A DNA stretch of 64,000 bases. It comes from Candidatus Multivoradales bacterium. Lineage in GTDB: Bacteria; Acidobacteriota; Thermoanaerobaculia; Multivoradales; JAHEKO01. The DNA lies in NCBI GenBank assembly GCA_965248055.1, contig CBDFIJ010000004.1, positions 1,216,001 through 1,280,000 of the forward strand, in the 5' to 3' direction. Shown here one piece after another: positions 1 through 42,503 of this stretch (its first letter is position 1; every line of letters starts with the position of its first letter). The notes under the pieces were generated by a model. The model had not been told where the DNA came from. It did no database searches and saw only the letters and a list, made by a program, of their open reading frames with translations. The translations under genes were made by a program, and so were the position numbers.

Positions 1-686
1 TCCAAGCCCACCCACTCTTCGATCAGCATGCCTTCTTCGCCGTCATCGGGATTCGACAGGCGTCCCAGATCAGCGAACAAGCGCTCCACTTCCCTGACTC
101 GCTGTGGCTCGCGCATAGCCAATACGTCCCAGGCGGCCAGATGAACCGCCAAGCGCATGGTCAATGGCGTGTTTGAACTCCAACCAGCTTGGCGCAACAT
201 CACCGCCGTCGCTTCCAACTGAAGAAACAAATCCGACACCGCCAACGCGTCGGCACCTTCCGGCGCACCGACCAAGGGGTATCCAGGAAGCCGTTTCGCC
301 GGTCTACCCAGAAGTCGACGCCAAAAAGAGGCTAACTCGATGTCGCCCTCAGCCGCGATCGCCAACGAGTCACCTGTCACTTGACCAGGCACACCGTAGT
401 AAGGGCCGGCGTTGGCTTCGCCCCAATCGGCCCGGGTCAACACGTAAACCGTCATGCCGTACGGGTGTTTGGTCCACTTGGTCAGGGTAGCGGCCAGAGC
501 CTCCAACCGCTGTTGCACGTGGGCTGCGCGGTCGAGAGTACCTGCCGAATACATCACATGAACCGTATCTCCCGGGAGCCTGAAGAGTCTGACATCGGCA
601 GAGGCCCCTGCCGGTAACAAAGCACGGCTCAAGAGCACAGCCACCAGCAGACCCCATTTTCGGCTAGCCGTTGATCTATCCACCAT
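1..686 (-). CDS. Hypothetical exported protein, partial (runs off window start)
   Basis: Read manually: open frame from ATG 686 (MVDRSTASRKWGLLVAVLLSRALLPAGASA-DVRLF...) to base 1 with no stop; signal-peptide-like N-terminus. Missing from the ORF track because there is no stop in the window. Confidence 0.75.
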   Translation of the reverse strand, partial: MVDRSTASRKWGLLVAVLLSRALLPAGASADVRLFRLPGDTVHVMYSAGTLDRAAHVQQRLEALAATLTKWTKHPYGMTVYVLTRADWGEANAGPYYGVPGQVTGDSLAIAAEGDIELASFWRRLLGRPAKRLPGYPLVGAPEGADALAVSDLFLQLEATAVMLRQAGWSSNTPLTMRLAVHLAAWDVLAMREPQRVREVERLFADLGRLSNPDDGEEGMLIEEWVGL

Positions 687-39324: not shown

Positions 39325-41100
39325 TCACAACGGCCAGACGAGCAGGATCATCGGGATCCCGACGAACAGCACCAGAATCTCGAGCGGCAGGCCCATCCTC
39401 CAATAATCGCCGAATCGGTAACCCCCAGGGCCGAGGATGATGGTGTTGTTCTTGTGCCCGATCGGGGTCAGGAAAGCGCAAGAGGCCGCGACCGCGACGG
39501 CCATCAAGAAGGTGTCGGGGTTGGCGTTGAGGCGTTGGGCGATCTCGACCCCGATTGGCGCTGCAATGAGGGCCGTGGCAACGTTGTTGAGAACGTCGGA
39601 GAGAGTCATGGTGATGACCATCAGTAGCGCCACAACCGCTACCGTCGGCAGGCCTTCGGTCCAAGCCACCAGGTGATTGGCGATCAGTCCGGTGCCACCG
39701 CTCTCCTCGAGGGCGACGCTCAGCGGGATCATCGAGCCCAGAAGAACGATCACCGACCATTCGACCGATTCGTAGATCTCGCTCAACGGCACGATATTGA
39801 GAACAACGTAGAGGGCGACGACCGCCGCCAGCGCAACCGGCAGGTAGACCCAGCCCAAGCTAGCCACCACGATGGCGGCGACGAACGCACCGACGGCGAC
39901 CCCGGCCTTCTGACGCTGCGACACTTCGAGACCCCGCTCAGCCAGGGGCAGACAGCCCAACCAGTGGGCAACGTCCGGCATATGCCCCTTGGGCCCCAGC
40001 AGCAACAGGATGTCACCAGATCGAATTGGGGCTTTGCGCACCCTTTCGCGAATACGACGGCCGCTTCGTGAGATCCCGAGCAGCGTCACACCCCGGCGAG
40101 CGAGCAGCCGCGCTTCCATTGCCGAGCGTCCGGCGATTCTTGCCCCGGCCGGTACAACAACCTCGACCATATCCAGTGAATCCGAGGCCACGCTGTCTTT
40201 CTTCCGCGATGCCGAGAGCTTGAGATCCGCAGAGCCCGCCAGCTCGTGAATTGCATCGGGAGCGCCGCCGAGAACAACAAAGTCACTCTTGCGCAGTTCT
40301 TCATCCAGTGCCAGGCCAGGCAGGCGTCTGCCGCGCCGCACGAGACCGAGAAGGTCGACCTCGTTCTCTTCGCTCAGCTCGAGCAAGTCTCGGAACCGCT
40401 TTCCGAGAAACGGTGACGACTCGTTGACTCCTACTTCTGCGACATACTCCTGGAGTTCCTCGAGCTCCCGTACCGCGTCGTGCCGGCTCCGATCCCTGGG
40501 GACCAACCGCCATCCAACCAGCGCCACGTAGATGACACCAACGACGGCCACCGCCGCTCCCACTGGGGCGAAGTCAAACATCCCGTACGGCTTCCCCAGG
40601 GCGTCCTCACGAAAGGTCGCGATCACGATATTCGGTGGCGTTCCGATCAGGGTCACCATGCCCCCCAGAATCGAGGCGAACGAGATCGGCATCAGCGATA
40701 GCGACGGACTGCGCTTCGCCTTGTGGGCCGCCTTGATATCGAGCGGCATCAGCAACGCGAGCGCCGCAACGTTGTTCATTGCAGTCGAGAGTATCGCCGC
40801 TAGGCTTGCCATGATGCCGATGTGTCCCGGAAGGCTTCGGGAAGAATCGAGCACCCTGAGAGCCAGTAAGTCGATCGCCCCCGAGCGCGAGAGCCCGCGG
40901 CTGACGATCAGGACAAGAGCGATGATGACTACCGCCGGATGCCCGAATCCGGAGAAGATCTGATTCTTGGGAACGAGCCCCAAAACGGCGGCGAGAATCA
41001 GGGCCCCGAAGGCCACGACGTCGTACCGAAACTTACCCCAAATCAGTAGGACGAAAACCGCGGAGACGATGGCAAATAGCACGATCTGGTCGAACGTCAC
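39325..41100 (-). CDS. SLC13/CitMHS-type permease with two TrkA-C domains
   Basis: GFGHPAV, TLIGTPPN, central RCK_C repeats, TPIGHKNN, GGYRFGDY. Confidence 0.92.
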   Translation of the reverse strand: MTFDQIVLFAIVSAVFVLLIWGKFRYDVVAFGALILAAVLGLVPKNQIFSGFGHPAVVIIALVLIVSRGLSRSGAIDLLALRVLDSSRSLPGHIGIMASLAAILSTAMNNVAALALLMPLDIKAAHKAKRSPSLSLMPISFASILGGMVTLIGTPPNIVIATFREDALGKPYGMFDFAPVGAAVAVVGVIYVALVGWRLVPRDRSRHDAVRELEELQEYVAEVGVNESSPFLGKRFRDLLELSEENEVDLLGLVRRGRRLPGLALDEELRKSDFVVLGGAPDAIHELAGSADLKLSASRKKDSVASDSLDMVEVVVPAGARIAGRSAMEARLLARRGVTLLGISRSGRRIRERVRKAPIRSGDILLLLGPKGHMPDVAHWLGCLPLAERGLEVSQRQKAGVAVGAFVAAIVVASLGWVYLPVALAAVVALYVVLNIVPLSEIYESVEWSVIVLLGSMIPLSVALEESGGTGLIANHLVAWTEGLPTVAVVALLMVITMTLSDVLNNVATALIAAPIGVEIAQRLNANPDTFLMAVAVAASCAFLTPIGHKNNTIILGPGGYRFGDYWRMGLPLEILVLFVGIPMILLVWPL

Positions 41101-41248
41101 GTAGACACTTTACCCGGAGTGACAGAAACTCTTCGGCTTCAACTGCTCGAAGGTCTGTTACCCGAGCATTGCCGCCCTTTTCTGCAACAGCACCTCTAGT
41201 CGGCAGGCCATGCCTGAGTACCTCCCGATCTTCACTTCGTTTCGTGAA

Positions 41249-41287
41249 GAAAGAAAAAAGGCCCGGAGCGATCATTCGCCCCGAGCC
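41249..41287 (-). terminator. Intrinsic terminator of the small minus-strand unit
   Basis: GGCUCGGGGCGA-AUGA-UCGCUCCGGGCC followed by UUUUUUCUUU. Confidence 0.8.
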
Positions 41288-41358
41288 CGGATGGTTCGCG
41301 TTGGTAGCGTTGGGTCACTTCGACAGACCCGCAAGCAGCAAACGCTCTAAAAGGGTGT

Positions 41359-41403
41359 CTAGAAGCCAGCCACCTCCGTCGAACCGTGTTTACTACTAAC
41401 CAC
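41359..41403 (-). CDS. Putative 14-aa micro-ORF (MVSSKHGSTEVAGF) behind an extended SD
   Basis: AAAGGAGGTGATCCA immediately before GTG (AGGAGG spacer 7 nt); followed by a hairpin and terminator. Confidence 0.5.
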   Translation of the reverse strand: MVSSKHGSTEVAGF

Positions 41404-41642
41404 TGGATCACCTCCTTTTTCGAGCGTACTTAAGGTGCGGCAGGACCCAAACCCGCCCGGGACGAACAGCCGCTCCCAAACCGCCCGACCCGCCGCCCGG
41501 TTGACCAGGACACCAACGATGACCTGCCGACCGCTACGGAACTCGCCGCGATATTGACGCAATTGCCGCTGCTACGTCAATTTCAAGGGTCAAGGCTAGC
41601 CGCGATACAATTTAAGGTTCATGGATTCGGAGGAGGATTCTC

Positions 41643-42503
41643 ATGGCGAACTACAGAACCCCAGTTTTTGGTCGAGGGCAGCAGGTGCAGAGGCAACGCC
41701 GCGGTGGTTTTAACAAGGCTCGGCTACTTTTGGCCTTGGGGATCGCAGCCTTTTCTTTGCTGTCCTACTGCCGAACTCGTACCGAGAATCCGGTCACTGG
41801 CGAAACCCAATACGTAGATTTGTCCCCGGATCAAGAAATCGCCTTGGGACTCCAGGCAGCCCCAGAGATGGCCCAACAGCATGGCGGATTACATCCCGAT
41901 CGCGCGGCTCAGGACCAAGTCGACCTGGTGGGCGGTGAGATTGTAAGCAAGTCGATGGCAAGTCAAACGCCCTACAACTTTGAATTTCATCTCCTCGCCG
42001 ACCCCAACACGGTCAACGCCTTTGCTCTCCCAGGGGGCCAAGTGTTTATTACTGCAGCGCTCTACAACCGATTGGAATCAATTGGCCAACTGGCAGGAGT
42101 TCTAGGACATGAGGTCGCTCACGTGGTTGGGCGCCATGGTGCCGAGCACATGGCCAAAGCCAAGCTAACCCAAGGCCTGGCTGGCGCTGCGGTGCTGGCA
42201 ACCTCTGATCCTTCGCAGAGATCCGCTGGTATCGCGCAGATGATCGGCCGCATGATCAACATGAAATATGGGCGGGCAGATGAACTGGAGTCCGACAAGT
42301 TTGGGATTTGGTTCATGTCTGACGCCGGTTATGACCCCAGATCGATGGAGCGGGTGATGGAGATTTTGGCAGAGGCCTCCCAGGGGCCGCGGCCCGCCGA
42401 GTTCTTCTCCACCCACCCCAACCCAGAGCAACGGGTAGAGCAAATCCGGGCCGAGATTCAGCGTCGATTCCCCAGCGGGGTACCGTCGACTCTCAAGCCT
42501 TAG
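41643..42503 (+). CDS. M48 family zinc metalloprotease
   Basis: NAFALPGG, HEVAH, ELESD, STHP. Confidence 0.93.
   Translation: MANYRTPVFGRGQQVQRQRRGGFNKARLLLALGIAAFSLLSYCRTRTENPVTGETQYVDLSPDQEIALGLQAAPEMAQQHGGLHPDRAAQDQVDLVGGEIVSKSMASQTPYNFEFHLLADPNTVNAFALPGGQVFITAALYNRLESIGQLAGVLGHEVAHVVGRHGAEHMAKAKLTQGLAGAAVLATSDPSQRSAGIAQMIGRMINMKYGRADELESDKFGIWFMSDAGYDPRSMERVMEILAEASQGPRPAEFFSTHPNPEQRVEQIRAEIQRRFPSGVPSTLKP

What the first reader, a model, noticed from the sequence alone, without database searches (positions are those of the whole stretch)
41249..41581. Stand-alone structured small transcript with a perfect 16S-3'-end complement and a 14-codon ORF
Seen, on the minus strand, in order: (a) a TTGACG promoter-like hexamer. 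(b) A ~125-nt leader (41545-41421) whose ends base-pair: CGAG/CTCG, CGTA/TACG, GGT/ACC, CGGCAGG/CCTGCCG. (c) Immediately after it, AAAGGAGGTGATCCA. (d) GTG-VSSKHGSTEVAGF-TAG. (e) A bulged hairpin AGCGTT..GGGTC/GACCC..AACGCT. (f) A strong U-tailed terminator. Established: AAAGGAGGTGATCCA is the exact 15-nt complement of the conserved 16S 3' tail (TGGATCACCTCCTTT), far longer than a normal SD. Inference: this is an independent ~300-nt gene, not the leader of a neighbour. It could encode a micropeptide, act as a 30S-capturing decoy or ribosome-sensing RNA, or be an attenuator. I cannot assign it to a named family.
Basis: partly seen in the sequence, partly recalled or inferred. Interest (0 to 1): 0.75.

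Follow-up and report, generated by a model that had tools for sequence, protein, structure and literature searches.

The report
Ribosome-binding small RNA with mini-gene
This is a real, stand-alone small gene whose highly folded RNA carries an unusually long ribosome-docking sequence and a 14-codon mini-gene; look-alikes were known only from alpha-proteobacteria and their function is still unknown.

Summary
The element is real. On the minus strand of window 41581-41249 lie a promoter-like site, a 16-nt perfect complement of the genome's own 16S 3' end that finishes in the G of a GTG start, a 14-codon ORF and an intrinsic terminator. It is single-copy. It has relatives in 139 of 300 genomes of its order (exact pattern), in 24 of 151 sampled genomes of its phylum and in 39 of 80 of a second phylum (covariance model), always one per genome, with no conserved neighbour gene.

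Reading frame 0 is kept open: 1 of 106 sequences has an early stop, against 67 and 72 in the other frames. Length changes come only in threes. SD changes are almost all wobble-compatible with the 16S tail.

Covariation supports a different fold: a 5' domain, two pseudoknots, and a long helix that holds the second half of the ORF and its stop codon.

No Rfam family matches (CC2171 scores 27.5 bits against a cut-off of 75). The closest known kind is the rre small mRNAs of alpha-proteobacteria (rreB/rreR), which bind 30S and have no known function.

Verdict: a new, larger, multi-phylum variant of that kind, probably a ribosome-operated RNA switch. That mechanism is inferred.

The parts
41551..41580 (-). 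Promoter-like site: -35 TTGACG (41580-41575), a 17-18 nt spacer, then -10 TCAATA/CAATAT (41557-41551). The transcription start is inferred near 41545.
   Evidence: Sequence read. The generic scan did not call it. The same motif, TTGACN-16..18-NANNNT, lies 120-185 nt upstream of the SD in 80 of 103 relatives.
41439..41539 (-). 5' domain. P1 pairs 41539-41536 with 41496-41493 and encloses a variable hairpin. The P2/P3 hairpin spans 41491-41459 (P3 loop 41479-41471). The P4 hairpin spans 41457-41439 (loop 41451-41445).
   Evidence: Cells paired across 99 sequences: P1 96.5%, P2 97.3%, P3 76.3%, P4 98.0%. Changes on both sides occur in 5 of 5, 4 of 4, 4 of 4 and 5 of 6 pairs. Window coordinates come and from reading.
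41422..41475 (-). Pseudoknot PK1: the P3 loop GAGCG (41475-41471) pairs with CGCUC (41426-41422), which ends 3-6 nt before the SD.
   Evidence: 85.8% of cells are paired and 7 of 7 pairs show changes on both sides. Matched partners score 5.61 against 5.31 +/- 0.056 for permuted partners; 0 of 500 permutations reach the observed value.
41403..41418 (-). Extended Shine-Dalgarno AAAGGAGGTGATCCAG, a 16-nt perfect complement of the genome's own 16S 3' end. Its last base is the G of the GTG start.
   Evidence: Family-wide, the 12-nt core gives 475 Watson-Crick, 27 wobble-compatible and 2 mismatched cells out of 504.
41359..41403 (-). Mini-ORF: GTG, 13 more codons (VVSSKHGSTEVAGF), then TAG.
   Evidence: Early stops: frame 0 in 1 of 106, frame +1 in 67 of 106, frame +2 in 72 of 106. 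Length varies only by whole codons in 139 of 139 pattern matches. Stop codons among 105 distinct sequences: TAG 70, TAA 26, TGA 9.
41369..41377 (-). Internal SD-like GGAGGTGGC at codons 10-12. GGA lies in an internal loop; GGUGGC is the 5' strand of helix Pa.
   Evidence: The spacing from GGAGG to the stop codon is 11 nt in 91 of 105 sequences, 10 nt in 3, 12 nt in 1 and 14 nt in 10. Model hits not chosen by the pattern show variants CGAGG, GAAGG, UAAGG and UGAGG.
41293..41385 (-). Long closing helix of the 3' domain. P0 pairs GGUUCG 41385-41380 with CGAACC 41298-41293. Pa pairs 41374-41369 with 41308-41303. Pb pairs GCUUC 41366-41362 with GAAGU 41321-41317. Codons 7-14 are its 5' strand and the stop codon follows directly after Pb.
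   Evidence: P0: 77.4% paired, 6 of 6 pairs with changes on both sides; matched 5.45 against permuted 4.32 +/- 0.089, 0 of 500. Pa: 99.2% and 95.2% paired; the eighth pair varies UA 62, GC 6, AU 5, CG 4. Pb: 79.5% paired. Coordinates come and from reading.
41311..41449 (-). Pseudoknot PK2: the P4 loop UGGGU (41449-41445) pairs with the bulge ACCCA (41315-41311), which lies between Pb and Pa.
   Evidence: 79.8% of cells are paired, but the core GGG/CCC hardly varies. In the register-free test matched partners score 4.81 against 4.50 +/- 0.051 for permuted partners, 0 of 500. Examples of paired changes: GGGG/CCCC, GGGC/GCCC, UAGGG/CCCUA.
41322..41358 (-). Interior of the 3' domain (P8/P5/P6 equivalents). 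In the window ACCC 41356-41353 pairs with GGGU 41330-41327 around a small hairpin.
   Evidence: This part is less well aligned: P8 60.2%, P5 55.9%, P6 78.5% paired. The window pairing was read.
41249..41288 (-). Intrinsic terminator: a 13-pair stem (41288-41259) followed by a T-rich tail.
   Evidence: A terminator-like hairpin with a T run lies at the same place in 63 of 102 relatives, against 5 of 102 control stretches.

Best explanation
The locus is a stand-alone, single-copy gene for a structured RNA of about 300 nt. It is an rre-like small mRNA, found here outside the alpha-proteobacteria.

Shown:
- It has its own promoter motif and terminator.
- A 12-16-nt SD is kept complementary to the 16S 3' tail and ends at a GUG start.
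- A 12-15-codon ORF is kept open and in frame.
- The conserved fold has a 5' domain (P1-P4) that makes one pseudoknot just upstream of the SD (PK1) and a second with a bulge of the 3' domain (PK2).
- The second half of the ORF is the 5' strand of the long closing helix P0-Pa-Pb of that 3' domain, and the stop codon follows directly after Pb.

Inferred:
- The long SD docks a 30S subunit very tightly, as measured for rreB.
- A ribosome that translates to the stop codon must unzip P0-Pa-Pb. That remodels the 3' domain and frees its conserved 3' strand (GGGG-ACCCAA-CGCCACC-..-CAAACC).
- The RNA therefore flips between a closed fold and an open, ribosome-held state. It reports or responds to ribosome availability or translation.
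- The output acts in trans, or on the RNA's own stability, not on a neighbouring gene.
- The act of translation matters, not the peptide sequence.
For: Real and stand-alone:
- One copy in the genome.
- Exactly one copy in each of 139 of 300 genomes of the order; the reversed-pattern control found 0.
- One copy in 24 of 151 genomes of the phylum sample and in 39 of 80 of a second phylum.
- The largest neighbour-gene cluster covers only 12 of about 105 loci.
- Promoter motif in 80 of 103. Terminator-like site in 63 of 102, against 5 of 102 controls.

Translated:
- Early stops in frame 0 in 1 of 106, against 67 and 72 in the other frames.
- All 139 pattern matches are 41, 44, 47, 50 or 53 nt long, although any gap from 17 to 29 nt was allowed (lengths read by eye from the coordinates).
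- The stop is TAG, TAA or TGA at a fixed place.

The peptide is not the point:
- Eisenbacteria-labelled and Planctomycetota-labelled forms read GGAGGUGGC in two other frames.
- They still stop 10-12 nt after GGAGG and keep 12-15 codons.

SD pairs with 16S:
- 27 of 29 departures from the perfect 12-mer keep pairing by G-U.

Fold:
- 84.0% of cells are paired, against 39-48% when partners are slid.
- The covariation score is 0.216, against at most 0.104 when slid.
- 0 of 500 shuffles reach any measure.
- P0, PK1 and PK2 also pass the partner-permutation tests.

Analogy:
- rreB binds 30S, is weakly translated, and its stability depends on its start codon (PMC5711450; abstract and sections 13, 14, 18, 19 read).
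Against: - There are no expression data. No RNA run holds the stretch.
- Transcript ends, 30S binding and translation are not observed for this family.
- The switch and its output are inference. No partner or target is known.
- For rreB the authors report that the long SD and the GTG impede translation. Overproduction gave no growth effect, so ribosome-driven unfolding may be rare.
- The relatives used for most counts were found with a pattern that fixes the SD and GGAGGTGGC. Their invariance in A2 and A3 is therefore built in. Model hits show that the inner GGAGG is not universal (CGAGG, GAAGG, UAAGG, UGAGG), which weakens any role for it as a second SD.
- The 16S tails of the other genomes were assumed to equal the window's, not checked.
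- Shuffle controls ignore relatedness and are not probabilities.
- P8 and P5 pair poorly in the alignment (60% and 56%).
Confidence: 0.55

Rival explanations
1. It is an ordinary small-protein gene. The 14-residue peptide is the product, and the RNA fold only tunes its expression or stability.
For: - The ORF is kept open and in frame.
- In the main family the C-terminal half reads G-[LSF]-x-E-V-A-[SAT]-x.
- RreB and RreR peptides are reported as conserved within their clades (PMC5711450, section 18).
Against: - The conserved residues E-V-A are encoded by GAGGUGGC, which is itself a helix strand (Pa), so the RNA explains them.
- Residues 2-6 vary freely.
- Three lineages read the same motif in three frames, giving EVA, GGG or RRW.
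- More than 200 nt of covarying structure and two pseudoknots are a great deal for a 45-nt ORF.
Confidence: 0.15
2. It is a 30S decoy or sponge. Its function is to bind the 16S tail, and elongation and the peptide are irrelevant.
For: - The 12-16-nt complement to the 16S tail is kept, with wobble-only changes.
- rreB sits on 30S subunits.
Against: - The gene is single-copy.
- The rreB authors argue from overexpression that simple ribosome titration is not its main function (section 19).
- Binding alone does not explain the open frame, the codon-wise indels or the fixed stop position.
Confidence: 0.12
3. It is a cis-acting leader or attenuator of the downstream CitMHS/TrkA-C transporter gene (41100-39325, minus strand).
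For: - It lies upstream of the transporter on the same strand, about 150 nt away.
- Leader peptide plus terminator is the classical attenuator layout.
Against: - No downstream or upstream gene family is shared by more than 12 of about 105 loci. Flanks differ even among the first eight relatives.
- There is no run of regulatory codons.
- No conserved antiterminator was seen. The one I sketched fails in the window's own sequence (my reading).
Confidence: 0.04
4. It is a structured non-coding RNA whose ORF is incidental. It would be a protein-binding or ligand-binding RNA, and the SD-like stretch would be part of the fold.
For: - Extensive covariation-supported structure.
- GGA facing GA in the internal loop next to Pa looks like a tandem G-A motif: GA follows the Pa 3' strand in 60 of 99 sequences.
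Against: - The frame statistics and codon-wise indels.
- The SD lies in no covarying helix.
- The SD's substitutions fit pairing with 16S.
Confidence: 0.06

Closest known systems
rre small mRNAs of alpha-proteobacteria (rreB of Bradyrhizobiaceae, rreR of Rhodobacterales; Hahn et al. 2016, PMC5711450; abstract and sections 13, 14, 18, 19 read)
   Same: - A stand-alone small transcript with its own promoter and terminator.
- A 16-17-nt perfect complement of the 16S 3' end whose last base is the G of a GTG start.
- A sORF of 14 codons (rreB) or 18 codons (rreR), with UAA or UAG stops.
- Genomic context not conserved beyond close relatives.
- Function unknown.
   Different: [quoted passage not shown] This family is in records labelled Acidobacteriota, Krumholzibacteriia, Latescibacterota and others.
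- rreB is 165 nt with the SD near the 5' end and largely inside a first hairpin. Here the RNA is about 300 nt with an extra 125-nt 5' domain, two pseudoknots, and an SD outside any conserved helix.
- The short Eisenbacteria-labelled form (about 170 nt, SD able to pair with GGAUCAGC inside the ORF) looks more like rreB.
- Sequence homology could not be tested. No rreB or rreR sequence was at hand, and the paper's figures and supplements were not visible.
Rfam RF01867, the CC2171 sRNA of Caulobacter and other alpha-proteobacteria
   Same: - The consensus begins GAAAGGAGGUGAUCCAGUG, which is identical over 18 nt.
- The first codons form the closing helix of a multi-stem domain, followed by a terminator (alignment).
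- Expression was shown by Northern blot in Methylorubrum, and the function is unknown (preprint 10.1101/2022.01.24.477521, passages read).
- I infer that CC2171 is the Caulobacterales rre gene. No paper I read says so.
   Different: - It scores 27.5 bits against a gathering score of 75.
- 0 of 10 other family members match at E <= 0.01.
- The match rests on the SD, the GUG and the terminator. The inner stems do not correspond.
tmRNA (ssrA)
   Same: - A single-copy, pseudoknot-rich RNA that carries a short internal ORF.
- The ORF's end lies in a helix, and a pseudoknot lies just upstream of the coding start. These tmRNA details are recalled, not taken from a call.
   Different: - This element has no tRNA-like domain.
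- It has an SD and a GUG for ordinary initiation.
- The genome has a normal tmRNA elsewhere, with tag ANDNLALAA.
Leader-peptide attenuators and the trans-acting attenuator RNA rnTrpL with its 14-residue peTrpL (PMC6614838; only the search listing and abstract start seen)
   Same: A short translated ORF whose ribosome occupancy decides between RNA folds, followed by a terminator. The released small RNA can act in trans.
   Different: - No regulated downstream operon.
- No regulatory codons.
- The long SD and the pseudoknotted domains have no counterpart.
Translation-opened pseudoknot control of IncI-alpha/IncB plasmid rep genes, and S15 entrapment at the rpsO pseudoknot (both recalled, no call)
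   Same: - Translation of a short leader ORF to its stop opens a helix and changes a long-range pseudoknot.
- A pseudoknot directly abuts the SD.
   Different: Those act in cis on a downstream ORF. Here there is none.

Membership tests
rre small mRNAs (rreB/rreR) | At least 16 nt of complementarity to the 3' end of the organism's own 16S rRNA, upstream of a sORF | tested here: met
   The window's AAAGGAGGTGATCCAG equals the reverse complement of the genome's own 16S gene end over 16 nt. Across the family only a 12-nt core is kept, with wobble changes, so many relatives would fail a strict rule of 16 perfect nt.
rre small mRNAs (rreB/rreR) | The complementary stretch ends with the first base of a GTG start codon | tested here: met
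   Window. The start is GTG in 41 of 42 distinct model hits and TTG in 1 (the start-codon tally is unaffected by that script's offset error). The base before the GTG varies (A, T, C or G), so in many relatives the perfect stretch stops at CC.
rre small mRNAs (rreB/rreR) | A conserved sORF of about 14-18 codons | tested here: met
   The window has 14 codons. Among 105 distinct sequences, 71 have 14 codons, 20 have 15, 9 have 13, 4 have 12 and 1 has 7.
rre small mRNAs (rreB/rreR) | A small independent transcript (mapped start, promoter, terminator; about 165 nt) | tested here: inconclusive
   The promoter motif and terminator are conserved in sequence. No transcript data exist (one search lists no RNA holder). 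The predicted length is about 300 nt, not 165.
rre small mRNAs (rreB/rreR) | Binds the 30S subunit; stability depends on the start codon | not testable with these tools
   This needs gradients, toeprints and mutants.
rre small mRNAs (rreB/rreR) | Sequence homology of the RNA or peptide to rreB/rreR | not tested
   No rreB or rreR sequence was available from a tool. The figures and supplements of PMC5711450 are not held.
Rfam RF01867 CC2171 | Covariance-model score at or above the gathering score of 75 bits | tested here: not met
   27.5 bits, E about 8e-4. 0 of 10 other members match at E <= 0.01.
Any other Rfam 15 family (riboswitches, 6S, leaders and the rest) | A match at the gathering score | tested here: not met
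   0 matches in the whole window. Only chance-level hits appear in 41000-41750.
tmRNA | A tRNA-like domain and a tag ORF without an SD, detected by ARAGORN | tested here: not met
   ARAGORN finds one tmRNA in the genome, at another place (contig 4, 1972708-1973062), and none here.
Leader-peptide transcription attenuator | A conserved regulated gene or operon directly downstream | tested here: not met
   Clustering of flanking ORFs shows no family in more than 12 of about 105 loci, on mixed sides and strands.

The most novel reading that the evidence does not exclude
rre-type genes are not an alpha-proteobacterial oddity but an old, widespread class of ribosome-operated RNA devices. In Acidobacteriota and at least one other phylum the device has grown into a 300-nt pseudoknotted machine. 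The ribosome itself is its ligand: a 30S subunit is caught on a 12-16-nt SD. Only a ribosome that manages to elongate for 14 codons unzips the core helix and undoes the docking of the 5' domain on the 3' domain. The RNA would thus measure free or competent ribosomes and pass that on, either by exposing its invariant 3' strand, by releasing a bound factor, or by ribosome-dependent decay.
Probability: 0.3. Interest if true: 0.85.

Novelty: new variant of a known kind. Interest (0 to 1): 0.68.

Why it matters
The function of small mRNAs with SD sequences that span the whole free 16S tail has been open since rreB was described in 2016. My two library searches for follow-up work found only that paper.

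This family adds three things:
- It extends the kind to at least two further phyla.
- It supplies hundreds of sequences.
- It shows by covariation what the alpha-proteobacterial examples could not: the mini-ORF is wired into a large tertiary fold, so that translation and folding exclude each other.

That turns a curiosity into a testable mechanism, using start-codon, frame and compensatory helix mutants, 30S binding and structure probing. It also gives annotators a model (R1) for a gene that current pipelines miss. If the ribosome is the ligand, this would be a new way for cells to sense translational capacity.

Tried and rejected
- **Single-sequence folding.** The fold is not more stable than shuffles, so I did not use it as evidence.
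- **Generic promoter scan.** It found nothing. The promoter argument rests on conservation only.
They are not conserved. One search mapped two stems to the wrong copies of short words; one search replaced it.
- **Expression.** No RNA holder is listed among 6 runs, of which 4 come from one sample. I did not use read laying because contigs cannot show RNA ends or levels.
- **Rfam.** No family fits.
- **Attenuator idea.** The CGGGG strand of Pb could pair with the terminator's 5' arm in some relatives. The window's own sequence (GAAGU) cannot do this, so I dropped the idea. This rests on my reading.
- **SD sequestration by the 3' domain.**
  - The interior holds more complementarity to the SD region than shuffled interiors do (6.19 against 5.38 +/- 0.11).
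  - Matched partners barely beat permuted ones (6.04 +/- 0.058; 4 of 300 reach the observed value).
  - Only 9 of 99 carry a GAUCACC-like mimic of the 16S tail.
  - I kept this as a lead only.
- **Ideas not tested.**
  - Covariation between SD position 8 (A or G) and the P4 loop.
  - A K-turn-like reading of the GGA/GA internal loop.
  - Pairing of CCAGUG with CACUGG, seen in some relatives.
- **Wasted searches.** searched the same 80 sampled genomes three times, because the three centre genomes proved to lie in one GTDB phylum. They count as one result: 39 of 80, plus each centre.
- **Rows dropped.**
  - L105 (labelled Jatrophihabitans; 46-nt match, no promoter or terminator; taken as chance) was left out of all counts.
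  - L021 (in-frame TAG, contig end), L062 (labelled Planctomycetota) and L082, L090, L114 (labelled Eisenbacteria) were left out of alignments A2 and A3.
  - Sequences without enough flank were also dropped. A2 holds 99 of 107 distinct sequences, and A3 holds 101.
- **Unseen material.** Supplements and figures of PMC5711450 (extended alignments, peptide sequences) could not be seen. They may bear on homology.
- **Unused tools.** No protein searches, structure predictions or complex predictions were run. They do not bear on a 14-residue peptide.
Full report
**1. What is there**

I read the minus strand of window 41600-41240. In order it shows:
- TTGACG at 41580-41575, a 17-18-nt spacer, then TCAATA/CAATAT.
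- A G+C-rich stretch of about 125 nt.
- AAAGGAGGTGATCCA at 41418-41404.
- GTG at 41403-41401, then 13 more codons (VVSSKHGSTEVAGF), then TAG at 41361-41359.
- About 70 nt more, then a 13-pair terminator at 41288-41259 with a T-rich tail.

The neighbours are an M48 peptidase gene that diverges upstream (41643-42503, plus strand) and a CitMHS/TrkA-C transporter gene 150 nt downstream on the same strand (41100-39325).

The genome's own 16S gene ends with the reverse complement of AAAGGAGGTGATCCAG, so the match is 16 nt and includes the G of the GTG. The 13-mer AAGGAGGTGATCC occurs twice in the 3.4-Mb genome: here and in the 16S gene.

Taken alone, the locus is not statistically striking:
- The promoter scan finds nothing.
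- One terminator-like site is what shuffles give.
- The predicted fold is no better than shuffles (z = -0.93).

Everything that follows rests on comparison.

**2. It is a conserved, single-copy, stand-alone gene**

BLAST against 40 relatives gave seven clear homologues (E from 4.5e-53 to 1.4e-4). All seven kept the same order of parts.

A pattern made of the SD, the GTG, a free gap of 17-29 nt and GGAGGTGGC gave these results:
- It matched 139 of 300 genomes of the window's order, once per genome. The reversed-pattern control gave none.
- The record titles were Thermoanaerobaculia, Vicinamibacterales and Vicinamibacteria, other Acidobacteriota, Krumholzibacteriia, Latescibacterota/Latescibacteria, Eisenbacteria and one Fibrobacteraceae. 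There was also one Planctomycetota and one Jatrophihabitans; I take the last as chance.

A covariance model, R1, built from 101 sequences, does not demand the pattern. It found:
- One hit each in 24 of 151 sampled genomes of the window's phylum. Whole families were all-or-none: 5 of 5, 6 of 6 and 2 of 2, against 0 of 8 and 0 of 10.
- One hit each in 39 of 80 sampled genomes of a second GTDB phylum. That phylum holds the records labelled Krumholzibacteriia, Latescibacterota and Fibrobacteraceae. Searches repeated the same sample by my mistake.

Evidence that the gene stands alone:
- A motif TTGACN, 16-18 nt, NANNNT lies 120-185 nt upstream of the SD in 80 of 103 sequences.
- A terminator-like hairpin with at least 4 T in 8 lies downstream in 63 of 102, against 5 of 102 control stretches.
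- Clustering all flanking ORFs of about 105 loci found no gene family in more than 12 loci.

The element is therefore not the leader of a conserved neighbour.

**3. The mini-ORF is kept for translation, but not for its peptide**

- All 139 pattern matches in the order are 41, 44, 47, 50 or 53 nt long, although 13 gap lengths were allowed. I count 3, 13, 114, 8 and 1 by eye from the coordinates. Insertions and deletions therefore come only in whole codons.
- I looked for stops between the GTG and 6 nt past GGAGGTGGC in 106 distinct sequences. Frame 0 has a stop in 1, frame +1 in 67 and frame +2 in 72. The one exception sits at a contig end in a 76%-complete genome.
- ORF length is 14 codons in 71 of 105, 15 in 20, 13 in 9, 12 in 4, and 7 in the exception.
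- The stop is TAG in 70, TAA in 26 and TGA in 9. All three stop codons fill the same place.
- Residues 2-6 vary freely.
- The conserved end, G-[LSF]-x-E-V-A-[SAT]-x, is encoded by bases that are helix strands (see section 5).
- In records labelled Eisenbacteria the same GGAGGUGGC is read as G-G-G. In the Planctomycetota record it is read as R-R-W. In both the ORF still has 12-15 codons and stops 10-12 nt after GGAGG.
- The spacing from GGAGG to the stop is 11 nt in 91 of 105, 10 nt in 3, 12 nt in 1 and 14 nt in 10.

I conclude that ribosome passage up to a fixed point is selected, not a particular peptide.

**4. The long SD is kept complementary to the 16S tail**

I examined 42 distinct model hits, using a regular expression that all of them matched. 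Compared with the window's own 16S tail, the 12-nt core AGGAGGUGAUCC shows 475 Watson-Crick cells, 27 wobble-compatible cells (A to G opposite U, C to U opposite G) and 2 mismatches.

Transitions at the nine G or U positions would break pairing. They occur once. Transitions at the five A or C positions keep a G-U pair. They occur 27 times.

Two caveats apply. Related sequences share changes, and I assumed rather than checked the other genomes' 16S tails. The four bases further upstream are only loosely kept, and the base before the GTG varies. The selected duplex is therefore about 12-14 bp. The window's 16 is at the long end.

**5.

On a 99-sequence alignment (A2) I tested a model derived from the alignments. 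Overall:
- 84.0% of cells are paired, against 39-48% with partners slid by 1-3 columns.
- The covariation score is 0.216, against at most 0.104 when slid.
- 0 of 500 shuffles reach any of the five measures.

The shuffles ignore relatedness, and I derived the model from these same sequences. The slid control and the pair types therefore matter more than the shuffle counts.

Cells paired per helix:

| Helix | Cells paired | Note |
|---|---|---|
| P1 | 96.5% | for example GC 68, AU 21 |
| P2 | 97.3% | CG 48, UA 26; UA 34, CG 28 |
| P3 | 76.3% | |
| P4 | 98.0% | GC 84, AU 15 |
| PK1 | 85.8% | |
| PK2 | 79.8% | its GGG/CCC core hardly varies |
| Pa | 99.2% and 95.2% | last pair UA 62, GC 6, AU 5, CG 4 |
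| Pb | 79.5% | |
| P8 | 60.2% | inner 3' domain; the alignment is poor there |
| P5 | 55.9% | inner 3' domain; the alignment is poor there |
| P6 | 78.5% | inner 3' domain; the alignment is poor there |

A further helix, P0, pairs codons 7-8 with the bases just 3' of Pa. It is 77.4% paired, with changes on both sides in 6 of 6 pairs.

Some partners shift register between lineages, so I also compared each sequence's two partner segments with partners taken from other sequences:

| Element | Matched | Permuted | Permutations reaching it |
|---|---|---|---|
| PK1 | 5.61 | 5.31 +/- 0.056 | 0 of 500 |
| PK2 | 4.81 | 4.50 +/- 0.051 | 0 of 500 |
| P0 | 5.45 | 4.32 +/- 0.089 | 0 of 500 |

Examples of paired changes:
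- PK1: GAGCG/CGCUC (the window itself) and AGGCG/CGCCU, against the usual GGGCG/CGCCC.
- PK2: GGGG/CCCC, GGGC/GCCC and UAGGG/CCCUA.
- P0: GGUUCG/CGAACC (the window), GGAUUUG/CAGAUCC with a matched insertion, and UGUCCG/CGGACA.

In the window the model reads as follows:
- P1: 41539-41536 with 41496-41493.
- P2/P3: 41491-41459.
- P4: 41457-41439.
- PK1: 41475-41471 with 41426-41422.
- SD: 41418-41403.
- P0: 41385-41380 with 41298-41293.
- Pa: 41374-41369 with 41308-41303.
- Pb: 41366-41362 with 41321-41317.
- The stop codon follows directly after Pb.
- PK2: 41449-41445 with 41315-41311.

**6. What the anatomy implies**

The SD, the GUG and the first six codons form the only long stretch outside conserved pairing. 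PK1 bounds it 3-6 nt upstream and P0 bounds it about 18 nt downstream. PK2 ties the 5' and 3' domains together behind it.

From codon 7 to the last codon the ORF is one strand of a helix of about 20 pairs, and the stop codon follows directly. A ribosome that initiates can sit on the open stretch. To reach the stop it must unzip P0, Pa and Pb. That frees the most conserved 3' strand of the RNA and undermines PK2. This step is inference.

The inner GGAGG lies 7-11 nt before the last sense codon. A terminating ribosome could therefore hold it with its anti-SD. However, model hits carry CGAGG, GAAGG, UAAGG or UGAGG there, and GGA faces a GA dinucleotide in an internal loop in 60 of 99 sequences. 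It may be a structural motif rather than a second SD.

**7. What is known**

Rfam has no family for this element. The only near hit is CC2171 (RF01867) at 27.5 bits against a cut-off of 75. It shares the 18 nt GAAAGGAGGUGAUCCAGUG and a terminator. CC2171 is an alpha-proteobacterial sRNA of unknown function, confirmed by Northern blot in Methylorubrum (preprint passages).

A literature search led to Hahn et al. 2016 (PMC5711450; abstract and sections 13, 14, 18, 19 read). They report:
- rreB is a 165-nt small mRNA of Bradyrhizobiaceae. It has a 17-nt perfect complement to the 16S 3' end that includes the first base of a GTG start, and a 14-codon sORF.
- It co-sediments with 30S subunits and is translated weakly. 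The long SD and the GTG both hold translation down.
- It becomes more stable when the start codon is replaced by a stop.
- Overproduction had no growth effect, and the function is unknown.
- Analogues with 16-17-nt complements were reported in Caulobacterales, Rhizobiales, Rhodobacterales (rreR, 18 codons) and Rhodospirillales.

The text of that paper holds no mention of Rfam, CC2171, pseudoknots or Acidobacteria. The only paper in the library with both 'rreB' and 'Shine-Dalgarno' is that one. No paper combines 'Thermoanaerobaculia' with 'noncoding RNA'.

The window's element meets the sequence-level hallmarks of an rre gene: a 16-nt complement ending in the G of a GTG, a 14-codon sORF, its own promoter and terminator, and a variable context. 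I could not test homology. The SD is dictated by the 16S tail, so convergence is as likely as descent.

**8. How it differs**

- The family lies outside the alpha-proteobacteria, in at least two GTDB phyla.
- It is about twice as long as rreB.
- It adds a 125-nt 5' domain with two covariation-supported pseudoknots.
- It shows that the ORF is built into the closing helix of the 3' domain.

The form labelled Eisenbacteria has its -35 box only 45 nt before the SD. That predicts an RNA of about 170 nt. It also carries GGAUCAGC, a near copy of the 16S tail, inside the ORF, where it can pair with the SD. This resembles the published description of rreB, in which most of the long SD sits in a first hairpin. 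It suggests a common minimal module of SD, GUG, short ORF, closing helix and terminator, onto which the acidobacterial lineages added a docking 5' domain. This last point is inference.

**9. Verdict**

The interpretation 'independent gene' is supported. The named-family gap is partly filled: the element is rre-like, not a member of an Rfam family. The mechanism remains inferred.

I rate it a new variant of a known kind. It is of clear interest to RNA and translation specialists, because it makes the open question of what rre genes do testable with a rich comparative model.

Noticed in passing
L082, L090, L114 (records labelled Eisenbacteria); element near L082:3090-3276: A short form of the element. 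The -35 box lies only 45 nt before the SD, which predicts an RNA of about 170 nt. The ORF runs in another frame (..SGGGCS). GGAUCAGC, a near copy of the 16S tail, lies inside the ORF and can pair with the SD.
   Followed up: partly
L062 / L193 (record labelled Planctomycetota): One weak relative (32.9 bits) with the same SD, a GTG start and a 15-codon ORF in a third frame (..DRRWLSA), stopping 12 nt after GGAGG. The rest of the fold was not examined.
   Followed up: partly
L021 (genome handle G043, contig end): This is the only family member with an in-frame TAG, at codon 8. The contig ends just after the match and the genome is 76% complete. It may be an assembly error or a decayed copy.
   Followed up: no
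3' domain interior of many relatives (A2 columns 314-422); window 41358-41322: Just after the stop codon most relatives carry a CCUCC-like run paired with a GGAGG-like run (P5). 9 of 99 carry GAUCACC, GGUCACC or GACCACC, which is a mimic of the 16S tail. The interior is more complementary to the SD than shuffled interiors are (6.19 against 5.38). This hints at an alternative fold that hides the SD.
   Followed up: partly
L037, L045, L061, L092, L097: These relatives carry extra hairpins inserted in the 3' domain. In L092 and L097 the insertion pushes the conserved ACCCAACGCCACC and the terminator about 50 nt further downstream.
   Followed up: no
Genome handles G447, G448, G449: Records labelled Krumholzibacteriia, Fibrobacteraceae and Latescibacterota fall into one GTDB phylum: the same 80 genomes were sampled for all three centres. 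The NCBI labels overstate the number of phyla that hold the element.
   Followed up: yes
Genome contig 4, 1972708-1973062 (outside the window): A canonical tmRNA with tag ANDNLALAA, found while excluding a tmRNA reading.
   Followed up: yes
window 41232-41411 and 41359-41562, minus strand: Two longer ORFs overlap the element. One has 59 codons and starts at the GTG inside the SD. The other has 67 codons, starts at a TTG, and is in frame with the mini-ORF. The 67-codon product has no Pfam match, and the 59-codon frame is closed in the relative L012. Both look incidental.
   Followed up: partly
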